Source: a virus. Taken from it: a stretch of 64,000 nucleotides of DNA. Positions 43,176-46,985 of the stretch are shown one piece after another; position 1 is the first letter of the stretch, and each line of letters starts with the position of its first letter. The stretch is from the IMG/VR virus record IMGVR_UViG_3300028394_000001, positions 1 through 64,000 of that record; one strand, 5' to 3'. A program made the translations under genes and the position numbers. Under the pieces are notes generated by a model. That model was not told where the DNA came from. It saw only the letters and a list, made by a program, of their open reading frames with translations, and ran no database searches.

Positions 43176-43249
43176 TGGGGCATTGTGTAGTGATAGCACA
43201 GGAGACTTTGAATCTCTTAGTCTAGGTTTGATTCCTAGTGCCCCTGCCA
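43176..43249 (+). tRNA. tRNA-Gln(TTG)
   Basis: Loop CTTTGAA; GCCA end. Confidence 0.88.
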
Positions 43250-43391
43250 TATTGAAACATATTTTAAAATCCAGTAACTTTCTAGCACGTCCGGCCGGCA
43301 ATCTAGAAAGCAACCCGTAGAGGGGTAAGAGTCGAAAGAGTGATGGATAATCGGCGGTGAGAATCCGCAGAAAGTGTGTTTCAATATGGTA
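43245..43391 (+). ncRNA. Long-stem T-loop RNA B1 (Y RNA/YrlA-like)
   Basis: TGCCATATTGAAACATAT pairs with GTGTGTTTCAATATGGTA; internal GCGG-TGAGAAT-CCGC. Confidence 0.6.
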
Positions 43392-43438
43392 ATGTTATCT
43401 GCAGGTAGCATCCATACTGGGGAGTAATTGCCCTCAGG

Positions 43439-43518
43439 AACTCGTAGTCTTCTAGTGGTAAGAAGCCCCATTAAAGGGGTGAACACAGGTTCGATTCCTG
43501 TCTACAATGAGTTTGCTA
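43439..43518 (+). ncRNA. tRNA-like element with a truncated anticodon arm
   Basis: Canonical D and T arms; anticodon arm CCCC-ATTAAA-GGGG; bulged acceptor; ends GCTA. Confidence 0.6.
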
Positions 43519-43616
43519 TATAAGAACACATTGCATGCCTGACCGAAAAAGTCGTGGTAAACTACAAGAGAAAGAGGTTCGAATCCTCGGGACTGGTAGT
43601 GTGTTCCTATATGGTA
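43514..43616 (+). ncRNA. Long-stem T-loop RNA B2
   Basis: TGCTATATAAGAACACAT pairs with GTGTGTTCCTATATGGTA; internal GAGG-TTCGAAT-CCTC. Confidence 0.6.
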
Positions 43617-43623
43617 AAATTTA

Positions 43624-43715
43624 GGAAGATGATGCAGCTGGGATGGTCCGGCGACTAGCCTTGAAAACTAGGTTCTCAGAAATGGGATGGGGTTCGACTC
43701 CTCCGTCTTCCGCCA
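43624..43715 (+). tRNA. tRNA-Ser(TGA), 8/4 fold
   Basis: 8-bp acceptor GGAAGATG/CGTCTTCC; 4-bp T stem; loop CTTGAAA; G73. Confidence 0.82.
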
Positions 43716-43927: not shown

Positions 43928-43955
43928 TTGACAAAGTGTGTGGTTGTGTTATACT
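43928..43955 (+). promoter_or_regulatory. sigma70-type promoter P2 of the tRNA array
   Basis: TTGACA-16 nt-TATACT. Confidence 0.75.
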
Positions 43956-44023: not shown

Positions 44024-44098
44024 GCTCCCGTCGTCTACTGGCTAGGACGCTGCCCTTTCAAGGCGGAGAAGACGGATCGAAACCGTTCGGGAGTACCA
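44024..44098 (+). tRNA. tRNA-Glu(TTC)
   Basis: Loop CTTTCAA; variant T loop ATCGAAA. Confidence 0.9.
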
Positions 44099-44178
44099 TA
44101 GATAAACGCATTACCTCATAAGCCTGTCGGTGAAAACTGCTGTTACGCTTTTTGAGACTGGTGTGTTTTTCTATGGTA
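44094..44178 (+). ncRNA. Long-stem RNA B3
   Basis: TACCATAGATAAACGCAT pairs with GTGTGTTTTTCTATGGTA. Confidence 0.58.
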
Positions 44179-44187
44179 GTGTTATTT

Positions 44188-44262
44188 GGGGGTATAACTT
44201 AACGGCTAAAGTAGTAGGCTTTTAACCTATTAATCAGAGTTCGATTCTCTGTGCCCCTACCA
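44188..44262 (+). tRNA. tRNA-Lys(TTT)
   Basis: GTAGG-CTTTTAA-CCTAT. Confidence 0.93.
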
Positions 44263-44878: not shown

Positions 44879-44952
44879 GCCCTATTAGTATAATGGTATT
44901 ACACCTGTTTTGTAATCAGGTTACGGCAGTTCGATTCTGTCATGGGGCACCA
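44879..44952 (+). tRNA. tRNA-Thr(TGT)
   Basis: Loop TTTGTAA. Confidence 0.9.
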
Positions 44953-44960
44953 AGTTTTAT

Positions 44961-45026
44961 GCAGACGTTTTTTAACAATAGAGGGGTCCACCCTTTATCT
45001 ACGCGGAAACCGTAGTGTCTGCTCCA
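44961..45026 (+). ncRNA. D-armless tRNA-like RNA ending in UCCA
   Basis: Acceptor GCAGACG/TGTCTGC; central hairpin; 5-bp/7-nt T-like arm. Confidence 0.65.
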
Positions 45027-45031
45027 GTTTT

Positions 45032-45105: not shown

Positions 45106-45110
45106 ATTTT

Positions 45111-45180
45111 TAGGATGCGTTCAGCAAATTTTATACATTGAACTTTTAATTCAAACCGTAAAAAAGCATCCTGTTGTTTT
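45111..45180 (+). ncRNA. CAGCAA-scaffold RNA A1 carrying a Lys(UUU) anticodon stem-loop mimic
   Basis: AGGATGC/GCATCCT stem; GTTCAGCAA; TTGAA-CTTTTAA-TTCAA. Confidence 0.7.
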
Positions 45181-45182
45181 AT

Positions 45183-45261: not shown

Positions 45262-45330
45262 TAGAGTAGGTTCAGCAAACATAAAGCTAACTTTTGGATG
45301 TCTAGCGACAAAAACTACTCTGTTATTTTT
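45262..45330 (+). ncRNA. CAGCAA-scaffold RNA A2
   Basis: AGAGTAG/CTACTCT stem; GTTCAGCAA; GTTATTTT tail. Confidence 0.7.
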
Positions 45331-45331
45331 A

Positions 45332-45406
45332 GGTCATATGACGTAGACGGATGCGTAGCGGTCTCATAAGCCGACGAGAGTGGCTCGGTACCACTTATGA
45401 CCACCA
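45332..45406 (+). tRNA. tRNA-CAT (Met or Ile2), atypical T loop
   Basis: Loop CTCATAA; T loop CTCGGTA. Confidence 0.8.
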
Positions 45407-45716: not shown

Positions 45717-46205
45717 ATGAAAGATTTTGATATTGAAAAAGTGAAGCAATTCATTGTGAATCAAGGACCAGATACTAAAATCTATCTTGGTGCCGATTCA
45801 GAAAGATTGCGTGTTGATGGCGTATGGTATGCAGATTACGCATTAGCTGTTGTTGTTCATATTGATGGCCGCCACGGTTGTAAAATCTTTGGTTTCGTAA
45901 ACCGTGAATTAGATTACGACCACAAGAAAAGCAAACCTGCTATGCGACTGATGACAGAAGTTTATAAAGTTTCAGAATTGTTCCAAGCAATGTCTGATGT
46001 ACTTGAAGACCGCCACGTTGAAGTTCATTTGGACTTGAACAAATCAGTTGAACACGGAAGTTCTTGTGTTGTGCAGCAAGCGATTGGTTATATCAAAGGT
46101 ACATGTAATGTGACACCAATGGTTAAACCTGATGCACCTGCAGCAAGTTTCTGTGCAGATAGGTTGAAACGTATTTTGGCTGAACAAGAATTGGCCGAAG
46201 CGTAA
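45717..46205 (+). CDS. RNase H-like YkuK/DUF458-type protein
   Basis: IYLGADS, RLMTEV, EVHLDLN, KPDAPAASFCAD. Confidence 0.8.
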   Translation: MKDFDIEKVKQFIVNQGPDTKIYLGADSERLRVDGVWYADYALAVVVHIDGRHGCKIFGFVNRELDYDHKKSKPAMRLMTEVYKVSELFQAMSDVLEDRHVEVHLDLNKSVEHGSSCVVQQAIGYIKGTCNVTPMVKPDAPAASFCADRLKRILAEQELAEA

Positions 46206-46675: not shown

Positions 46676-46679
46676 ACAT

Positions 46680-46771
46680 GCCAGCGAGACTGGGTAGTCA
46701 GAGAGGCCTTATACACCTTTTAGCGCCAGATTAGCGTTCTTGAGTGAGTTCGAATCTCACCGCTGGTACCA
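46680..46771 (+). tRNA. Non-canonical tRNA with a TAT anticodon (nominally Ile), 4-nt D loop and long variable arm
   Basis: GCCAGCG/CGCTGGT acceptor; GACT-GGGT-AGTC; loop CTTATAC; GTGAG-TTCGAAT-CTCAC; ACCA. Confidence 0.7.
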
Positions 46772-46956: not shown

Positions 46957-46985
46957 TTGACAAATTACACTTATTTTGATAGAAT
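46957..46985 (+). promoter_or_regulatory. sigma70-type promoter for the A3-A4-TROVE/vWA unit
   Basis: TTGACA-17 nt-TAGAAT. Confidence 0.8.

What the first reader, a model, noticed from the sequence alone, without database searches (positions are those of the whole stretch)
45138..45154. Free-standing tRNA-Lys(UUU) anticodon stem-loop displayed in scaffold A1: possible nuclease decoy
Seen: the cargo of A1 is TTGAA-CTTTTAA-TTCAA, a 5-bp stem with a 7-nt loop identical to the Lys anticodon loop and closed by A-U as in E. coli tRNA-Lys. The phage's functional tRNA-Lys (44188-44262) instead closes its loop with G31-C39. Established: tRNA-Lys(UUU) is the target of PrrC and of PARIS AriB, and T5 escapes PARIS with a tRNA-Lys altered in the anticodon stem. 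Inference: the phage pairs a resistant tRNA-Lys with a host-like decoy, or uses the stem-loop as a cleavage sensor.
Basis: partly seen in the sequence, partly recalled or inferred. Interest (0 to 1): 0.78.

Follow-up and report, generated by a model that had tools for sequence, protein, structure and literature searches.

The report
Phage RNA displaying bare anticodon arm
A freshwater phage encodes a ~70-base RNA that carries only the anticodon hairpin of a lysine tRNA on a conserved "handle" shared with RNAs next to its Ro60-like protein gene; relatives keep the hairpin but swap the anticodon, so it is most likely a bait for host proteins that read or cut tRNA anticodon arms, which nobody has tested.

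Summary
The hairpin is at the stated coordinates, and the phage tRNA-Lys does close its loop G31-C39. Alone the hairpin is weak evidence (1.3% of cargo shuffles), but homologs show selection. Anticodon-type hairpins occur in 43/77 and, in a second set, 41/113 short cargoes (shuffles 0.5 and 1.3). U33 is invariant, A37 nearly so, position 34 is almost only U or G, and the stems covary. A covarying 2-bp helix below imitates the tRNA D-stem junction. It is not Lys-specific: A1's own lineage switches among UUU, UCU, UGU and GCU, and Thr(UGU) is commonest overall. The handle accompanies a DUF2828 protein whose model best matches Ro60. Phage tRNA-Lys and tRNA-Thr depart from the usual proteobacterial A31-U39, but A31-U39 is family-wide in cargoes, and the host is unknown. 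A1 lacks the AriB and P2-OLD determinants; a PrrC-like loop reader fits better. Best reading (0.5): a Ro60-like RNP bait for anticodon-arm defence nucleases. Expression, binding and protection are untested. I found no paper describing it; this scan noted the same system in other genomes.

The parts
45138..45154 (+). Anticodon stem-loop mimic (tRNA positions 27-43), Lys-type loop, anticodon UUU at 45145-45147; weak stem with one G-C pair
45135..45159 (+). Extended anticodon-arm mimic: AC (45135-45136) pairs with GT (45158-45159), unpaired A at 45137; resembles tRNA R24-Y11 / C25-G10 and A26 (the resemblance is inference)
   Evidence: one pair is G-C in 21 and A-U in 14 sequences, the other C-G in 35/35
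45111..45173 (+). Scaffold RNA A1: 8-bp terminal stem (45111-45118 with 45166-45173), unpaired CAGCAA box (45122-45127), A/U-rich linkers, U-tracts on both flanks; probably cut out of the tRNA polycistron (about 45107-45182; inferred)
45262..45322 (+). Paralog A2: same handle; cargo is not a canonical anticodon loop
47005..47133 (+). Paralog A3: same handle; multi-hairpin cargo ending in a T-loop-like hairpin
47142..47197 (+). Paralog A4: same handle; 5-bp/7-nt hairpin without the anticodon consensus; directly before the protein gene
47219..48649 (+). 476-aa DUF2828/DUF7788 protein (phrog_850), predicted Ro60-like helical ring plus vWA domain with DVSGS at residue 277; presumed handle-binding partner
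43928..43955 (+). Sigma70-like promoter (11/12) upstream of the tRNA run that contains A1 and A2
   Evidence: consensus match only
46957..46985 (+). Sigma70-like promoter (11/12) directly before A3-A4-DUF2828
   Evidence: consensus match only
44188..44262 (+). Phage tRNA-Lys(UUU) with G31-C39
44879..44952 (+). Phage tRNA-Thr(UGU) with U31.U39 mismatch and U32

Best explanation
A1 is a small non-coding RNA made from the phage tRNA operon. Its terminal stem and CAGCAA box form a handle that docks on the phage's Ro60-like DUF2828 ring, as Y RNAs dock on Ro60. The handle presents a stripped-down tRNA anticodon arm (a weak 5-bp stem, a Y32-U33-(U/G)34-N-(U/A)36-A37-A38 loop and two D-stem-like pairs). 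The particle acts as a bait or competitive sink for host defence nucleases that recognise anticodon arms, sparing tRNAs, while the phage's own tRNA-Lys and tRNA-Thr carry altered 31-39 pairs. The bait is class-wide (U-N-U and G-N-A loops), with Lys the identity this copy now has. Shown: sequence, structure by covariation, anticodon bias, linkage to the gene, predicted fold. Inferred: expression, processing, protein binding, target and protection.
For: Anticodon consensus in 43/77 and 41/113 distinct short cargoes vs 0.5 and 1.3 in shuffles. Chosen by loop motif alone, 77/85 have all 5 flanking pairs vs 0/85 in slid controls. Compensatory changes in handle, D-stem-like pair and anticodon stem, 99% of cells paired. 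Without any loop filter, position 34 is U/G in 50/55 distinct hairpins and A in 1. Other family members carry permuted or acceptor-less whole tRNA bodies. Thr UGU (31), Lys UUU (16) and Asn GUU (7) are three of the four commonest cargoes and are the AriB targets (PMC12409363); Thr UGU is the P2-OLD target (PMC12445682). Phage tRNA genes with A31-U39: Lys 12/49, Thr 2/68 vs proteobacterial genomes 81/95 and 73/90 (counted by eye); cargoes 16/16 and 30/31. Cargo stems are weak (mean +0.2 vs -3.6 kcal/mol); PrrC cuts 17-mer stem-loops and is inhibited by stable stems (PMC3014915). Top 13 Foldseek matches are Ro60/TROVE; VIA Z 15.2, rmsd 5.8, 373 aligned. A Ro60-like gene beside the tRNA cluster of phage Bas63 counters the ppl defence (PMC11482910).
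Against: No experiment exists. A1 lacks the AriB site (C40|A41) and D-loop, and the OLD CNG motif. A31-U39 also stays in short UCU cargoes although host Arg(UCU) is C31-G39. PrrC depends on wobble modifications that a bare hairpin may not receive (PMC3014915). A cleavable bait competes poorly with a catalytic nuclease unless abundant or uncleavable (inference). In P2-OLD, phage tRNA rescue worked by replacement, not competition (PMC12445682). Many cargoes (A2, A4, Felixounavirus, Listeria phage) have no anticodon consensus, so the particle has wider roles. The sequences are related, so the counts overstate independence. The host is unknown.
Confidence: 0.5

Rival explanations
1. The hairpin tethers or titrates housekeeping proteins that read anticodon arms, such as position-37/34 modification enzymes (t6A, ms2i6A, Q, mnm5s2U pathways), synthetases or the ribosome. 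The Ro60-like particle thereby steers tRNA maturation or translation towards the phage's own tRNAs, as Y RNA tethers Ro60 to PNPase.
For: The fixed letters are U36-A37-A38 or A36-A37-A38 with position 35 free, which match the t6A and MiaA determinants (own knowledge). The RNAs lie inside the tRNA operon: 76/126 within 15 nt of an upstream tRNA. The tether role of Y RNA is established (PMC4201824, PMC12135203).
Against: One-step anticodon switching on identical stems argues against one synthetase. This reading does not by itself explain why phage tRNA-Lys and tRNA-Thr change the 31-39 pair that cargoes keep. The benefit of titrating enzymes that phage tRNAs also need is unclear.
Confidence: 0.25
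2. The hairpin is a cleavage sensor or repair scaffold: cutting of the loop switches the Ro60-like particle or recruits RNA-repair enzymes, as in rsr-yrl-rtcB operons.
For: Ro60 loci are linked to RNA repair (PMC7790460 abstract; PMC7824862). Homologous genes in Serratia phage BF and Listeria phage LP-124 lie near RNA ligase or RtcB genes.
Against: This complete genome has no RtcB or PF09414 ligase match (controls rang) and no tblastn match to six phage repair enzymes. No effector or regulator is linked. A host ligase could still be used.
Confidence: 0.15
3. The loop is an inherited remnant of a tRNA-derived cargo, or a generic weak hairpin on the handle, and has no reader of its own.
For: Whole permuted and acceptor-less tRNA cargoes exist as possible ancestors. 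Linkers and stems are A/U-rich, and about half of the short cargoes lack the consensus. Only 41 distinct 17-mers underlie the counts.
Against: Loop positions 32, 33, 37 and 38 stay fixed while the stems on both sides change by compensation and the anticodon switches among real anticodons. A34 is almost absent in A-rich loops. Similar cargoes occur in distant phages and bacterial bins.
Confidence: 0.1

Closest known systems
YrlA/YrlB and Yrn1 Y RNAs with Rsr/Ro60 (Rfam RF02553; PMC4201824); Thermus phage phiLo Ro60 with Yrl1/Yrl2 (PMC12135203)
   Same: Several small RNAs within about 2 kb of a Ro60-fold gene on the same strand; a terminal stem with an adjacent conserved box; a modular tRNA-mimicking domain. 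Some family members have the YrlA order T-arm, closed acceptor, D-arm (YrlA model 37.5 bits at L040).
   Different: The box is GUUCAGCAA, not GNCGAA(N)G/CGAA. The partner is DUF2828/DUF7788, 12-20% identical to solved Ro60s. A1 displays an anticodon arm, the part that YrlA lacks, and its anticodon varies. A1 has no YrlA match.
Nuclease-resistant phage tRNAs: T5 tRNA-Lys/Thr/Asn against PARIS AriB (PMC12409363), phage tRNA-Thr against P2-OLD (PMC12445682), general hypothesis (PMC10264068)
   Same: Largely the same anticodon set; this phage group's tRNA-Lys and tRNA-Thr also alter the 31-39 pair.
   Different: Those are whole, chargeable tRNAs that rescue by replacement. A1 cannot be charged and keeps the susceptible-type loop, so it could only act by binding or competition.
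Dictyostelid Class I RNAs (Rfam RF01414; PMC7919456)
   Same: About 60 nt, short covarying terminal stem, an adjacent 11-nt box ending ACAGCAA, AG...CUGU ends, variable middle. A1 scores 19.2 bits and homologs up to 30.2.
   Different: All scores are below the gathering cut-off of 41.5. Class I RNAs are amoebal, bind an RRM protein, and no anticodon cargo is reported in the passages read. Common ancestry was not tested.
Bas63 (Felixounavirus) gp130, Ro60-like counter-defence against ppl (PMC11482910)
   Same: A Ro60-like gene upstream of the tRNA cluster. Felixounavirus JH2 has a 39%-identical homolog there with two handle RNAs behind it.
   Different: The authors only guessed at Y RNAs among the tRNA genes. 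The JH2 cargoes are not anticodon loops. That gp130 is this homolog is inferred from position, not checked.

Membership tests
Bacterial/phage Y RNA (YrlA type) | Within 4 kb of a Ro60-like gene, same strand | tested here: met
   A1 is 2.0 kb upstream of the gene; all 214 scaffolds in 80 homologous loci plus the window are on the gene's strand
Bacterial/phage Y RNA (YrlA type) | Stem joining the 5' and 3' ends | tested here: met
   8 bp, 5 pairs with compensatory changes
Bacterial/phage Y RNA (YrlA type) | GNCGAA(N)G Ro-binding motif | tested here: not met
   The conserved box is (G/A/U)U(U/A/C)CAGCAA
Bacterial/phage Y RNA (YrlA type) | tRNA-like T / acceptor / D domain; RF02553 at 69 bits or more | tested here: not met
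   A1 has none and no YrlA hit; long relatives reach 33-37.5 bits
Bacterial/phage Y RNA (YrlA type) | Binds the Ro60 ortholog | not testable with these tools
   Needs EMSA or co-immunoprecipitation
Ro60/TROVE proteins | Helical-repeat ring plus vWA domain | tested here: met
   Model (pLDDT 74.6, pTM 0.73): top Foldseek E 2e-9, TM 0.51; VIA Z 15.2, rmsd 5.8, 373 aligned, next non-Ro Z 10.3; predicted, not solved
Ro60/TROVE proteins | MIDAS DxSxS motif in the vWA domain | tested here: met
   DVSGS at 277, invariant in 42 homologs
Ro60/TROVE proteins | Pfam TROVE match or sequence similarity to solved Ro60 | tested here: not met
   Only DUF2828 and DUF7788; no PDB sequence match
tRNA gene | Acceptor stem with CCA, D arm, T arm | tested here: not met
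   Not called by ARAGORN or RF00005
AriB (PARIS, E. coli B185) substrate | U36-A37-A38-U39 | tested here: met
   Sequence; PMC12409363
AriB (PARIS, E. coli B185) substrate | C40|A41 at the cut and D-loop U16 contact | tested here: not met
   A1 has U40-C41 and no D-loop; a few homologs have the full site
P2-OLD substrate | [quoted passage not shown] | tested here: not met
   Stem TTGAA/TTCAA; PMC12445682
PrrC substrate | Lys anticodon loop on a breathing stem; 17-mer accepted | tested here: met
   Sequence only
PrrC substrate | Modified wobble uridine; actual cleavage or binding | not testable with these tools
   Needs biochemistry
Dictyostelid Class I RNA | Terminal stem, 11-nt box, CUGU end | tested here: inconclusive
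   Stem, CAGCAA and CUGU present; box position 3 differs in A1
Dictyostelid Class I RNA | RF01414 at 41.5 bits or more; dictyostelid host | tested here: not met
   19.2 bits, homologs up to 30.2; phage genome

The most novel reading that the evidence does not exclude
Phages run a modular RNA counter-defence. One Ro60-like protein carries a set of handle RNAs whose cargoes are interchangeable tRNA parts, and bare anticodon arms are retuned by point mutation to soak up or block whichever anticodon nuclease the host carries. This would be an RNA counterpart of sponge proteins, paired with escape variants of the phage's real tRNAs.
Probability: 0.35. Interest if true: 0.9.

Novelty: new variant of a known kind. 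Interest (0 to 1): 0.72.

Why it matters
tRNA cleavage is a common anti-phage effector. The counters described in the papers read are resistant replacement tRNAs and repair enzymes; competition by tRNA look-alikes has only been raised as a possibility (PMC12409363). A 63-nt RNA with a swappable anticodon loop makes that idea directly testable. It also gives a candidate function to a Ro60-like protein found in 697 phage records, and bears on what non-coding genes in phage tRNA clusters and phage Ro60-like particles do.

Tried and rejected
Expression: four public runs were laid. All are assembled contigs, no listed piece bridges A1, and contigs cannot show ends or levels, so this is no evidence either way. 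Rfam: no family at gathering level for any scaffold. PDB sequence search: nothing. ESM Atlas: only DUF2828 clusters. T4-type Rnl1 search: the control rang nowhere, so it is uninformative. Handle finder: none in the fetched stretches of Ci1, DLP_6, BF or Zakai, but the finder is strict (it missed the two JH2 copies later seen by eye) and their tRNA clusters are partly outside the stretch. Co-occurrence in handle-found loci: 33/120 hold the gene, most stretches are too short, inconclusive. I left the 'Ser GGA' class out of the core argument: several of those loops have an ambiguous register and GG loops could mimic D-loops. Fisher p-values ignore relatedness and are not used as probabilities. 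Rejected: tRNA gene or pseudogene (no arms); terminator (no scan hit); Lys-specific and AriB-specific decoy (see membership tests). Literature: ten searches found no description of DUF2828 handle RNAs or anticodon-arm decoys. The Burroughs and Aravind RNA-repair survey could not be opened, and most subscription papers are not covered. No complex prediction was run, because the tool does not score RNA partners.

Full report
Setting. The window is part of a complete 170,520-bp T4-like phage genome; related sequence occurs in lake-water runs. The finding lies in a cluster of about 30 tRNA genes, between tRNA-Pro and tRNA-Asn, downstream of a strong sigma70-like promoter match at 43928-43955.

Observation. 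The 17-mer is as described and is the only such hairpin in the genome (0.05 expected). It is too weak to fold alone but forms inside A1 (pair probabilities 0.60-0.74). The phage tRNA-Lys has G31-C39. For one copy in an A/U-rich cargo the chance is 1.3%, so homologs were needed.

The scaffold. The genome has exactly four elements with an 8-bp terminal stem and a CAGCAA box (45111, 45262, 47005, 47142). Two sit between a promoter match and the DUF2828 gene at 47219. In 80 viral loci found with that protein (66-95% identity) plus the window there are 214 such elements, all on the gene's strand. A relaxed finder detects the handle within 700 nt upstream of the gene in 19 of 70 prokaryotic-genome loci (some are probably phage contigs in bins) versus 1 on the control strand. 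Handles also occur in cultured phages of Synechococcus, Vibrio, Aeromonas, Klebsiella, Listeria and E. coli. The protein's model has Ro60/TROVE structures as its 13 best Foldseek matches and 10 best VIA matches (Z 15.2, rmsd 5.8, 373 aligned; next unrelated Z 10.3), with an invariant DxSxS. That the handle binds this protein is inferred from linkage and analogy with Y RNA.

The cargo is an anticodon-arm mimic under selection. Of 77 distinct short cargoes, 43 have a 5-bp stem with a Y-U-N-N-N-A-M loop (shuffles 0.5; permuting loop letters only, 2.4). A second set found by the handle pattern alone gives 41 of 113 (shuffles 1.3). To avoid circularity I selected by loop motif only: 77 of 85 then have all five flanking pairs, against 0 for slid registers. 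With no loop filter, 55 distinct hairpins show U33 in 47, U/G at 34 in 50, A at 34 in 1 and A37 in 41. In 35 close relatives of A1, 99% of cells pair and 9 of 15 pairs change on both sides. The five unpaired cells come from a one-column misalignment of longer variants. The alignment also shows a 2-bp helix below the hairpin, one pair switching between G-C (21) and A-U (14), separated by a fixed A. It matches the tRNA D-stem end and position 26 in permuted order (inference). Longer family members carry permuted tRNAs (anticodon arm, T arm, closed acceptor, D arm) or acceptor-less D-anticodon-T bodies, so the cargo slot holds tRNA parts.

It is not Lys-specific. Pooled anticodons are UGU 31, UUU 16, GGA 16 (partly ambiguous), GUU 7, UCU 5, GUA 4 and others. 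In A1's own lineage (same flanks) they are UUU 7, UCU 5, UGU 1 and GCU 1, and identical stems carry up to four anticodons. The constraint is on the loop class, with position 35 free.

The pairing idea. A31-U39 occurs in 12/49 phage tRNA-Lys(UUU) and 2/68 tRNA-Thr(UGU) genes, against 81/95 and 73/90 Pseudomonadota genomes (counted by eye) and 16/16 and 30/31 cargoes. This fits escape by the real tRNAs while cargoes keep the common form; U39 is essential for AriB cleavage (PMC12409363). Two controls weaken it. Host tRNA-Arg(UCU) is C31-G39 in 51/53 genomes, yet short UCU cargoes are A31-U39, so the pair is a family trait. G31-C39 is also native to 14/95 genomes, and the host is unknown.

Which reader? 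AriB needs C40|A41 and D-loop or other distal contacts; P2-OLD needs a CNG stem motif. A1 has neither. PrrC accepts 17-mer stem-loops and prefers breathing stems but depends on wobble modification (PMC3014915); cargo stems average one G-C pair and +0.2 kcal/mol versus 2.8 and -3.6 for phage tRNAs. The fixed U36/A36-A37-A38 would also suit position-37 modification enzymes (own knowledge). The genome shows no RtcB or PF09414 ligase, which lowers a phage-encoded repair role. The only functional datum is indirect: a Ro60-like gene before the tRNA cluster of Bas63 counters ppl (PMC11482910).

Verdict. This is a real, selected anticodon-arm mimic on an uncatalogued Y-like RNA handle. It works like a Ro60/Y RNA particle but fails YrlA membership (motif, domain, Rfam score). 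A bait for defence nucleases is most likely (0.5), then a tether or sink for housekeeping anticodon readers (0.25), a sensor or repair scaffold (0.15) and a remnant (0.1). I found no published description. Earlier notes of this scan report the same system in other genomes; I tested the claims independently. From them I took the lead to the Class I RNA paper, for a resemblance that had shown up weakly.

Noticed in passing
window 43245-43392, 43505-43622, 44098-44186: A second family of long-stem RNAs with related ends and different inserts; folding z-scores -6.4, -4.7, -2.8; no Rfam family.
   Followed up: partly
window 44955-45030: Structured element ending in CCA, tRNA-like without a D arm; z -3.5.
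   Followed up: no
window 43441-43509, 43624-43711, 45332-45403, about 46678-46771: tRNA-like genes missed by ARAGORN. Three have Rfam tRNA-clan scores of 32-39 bits; the last was seen only in the sequence and appears to have a UAU anticodon.
   Followed up: no
window 45717-46205: RNase H-like gene (PF04308) inside the tRNA array.
   Followed up: no
window 45262-45322 (A2) and homologs: Conserved cargo in which GCTA can pair with TAGC, itself the loop of a GTC-TAGC-GAC hairpin: two alternative pairings.
   Followed up: no
L009 7859-7976 and 6009-6107; L018 5074-5189: Handle RNAs carrying a circularly permuted tRNA with an intact anticodon arm, or an acceptor-less D-anticodon-T body; L009 and L042 differ at anticodon position 35 (UUU vs UCU).
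   Followed up: partly
short cargoes in many loci; L287 7571, L289 6211, L291 11634: Loops containing GG (for example AUUGGUA, CUGGUAA) may mimic D-loops rather than Ser/Pro/Thr anticodons.
   Followed up: no
L285 8837-8897 (Synechococcus phage BUCT-ZZ01): A cultured phage with a Lys-type anticodon hairpin (loop CUUUUAC) on the handle just upstream of the homologous gene.
   Followed up: partly
L286 8714-8804 and 8882-8958 (Felixounavirus JH2): Two unannotated handle RNAs between tRNA genes behind the homolog; candidates for the RNA partners of Bas63 gp130.
   Followed up: partly
L228 (321 nt upstream of the gene) and L232 (432 nt upstream): Handles in a gammaproteobacterial and a Ruminococcus assembly carry 4-bp hairpins with Lys(CUU)- and Leu(UAA)-type loops; Lachnospiraceae loci carry permuted tRNA cargoes.
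   Followed up: no
phage tRNA-Thr(UGU) genes, including window 44879-44952: U31.U39 mismatch in 32 of 68 distinct genes, not seen in the 90 proteobacterial genomes with a match.
   Followed up: partly
A1 and homologs: Consistent sub-threshold similarity to dictyostelid Class I RNAs (19-30 bits).
   Followed up: partly
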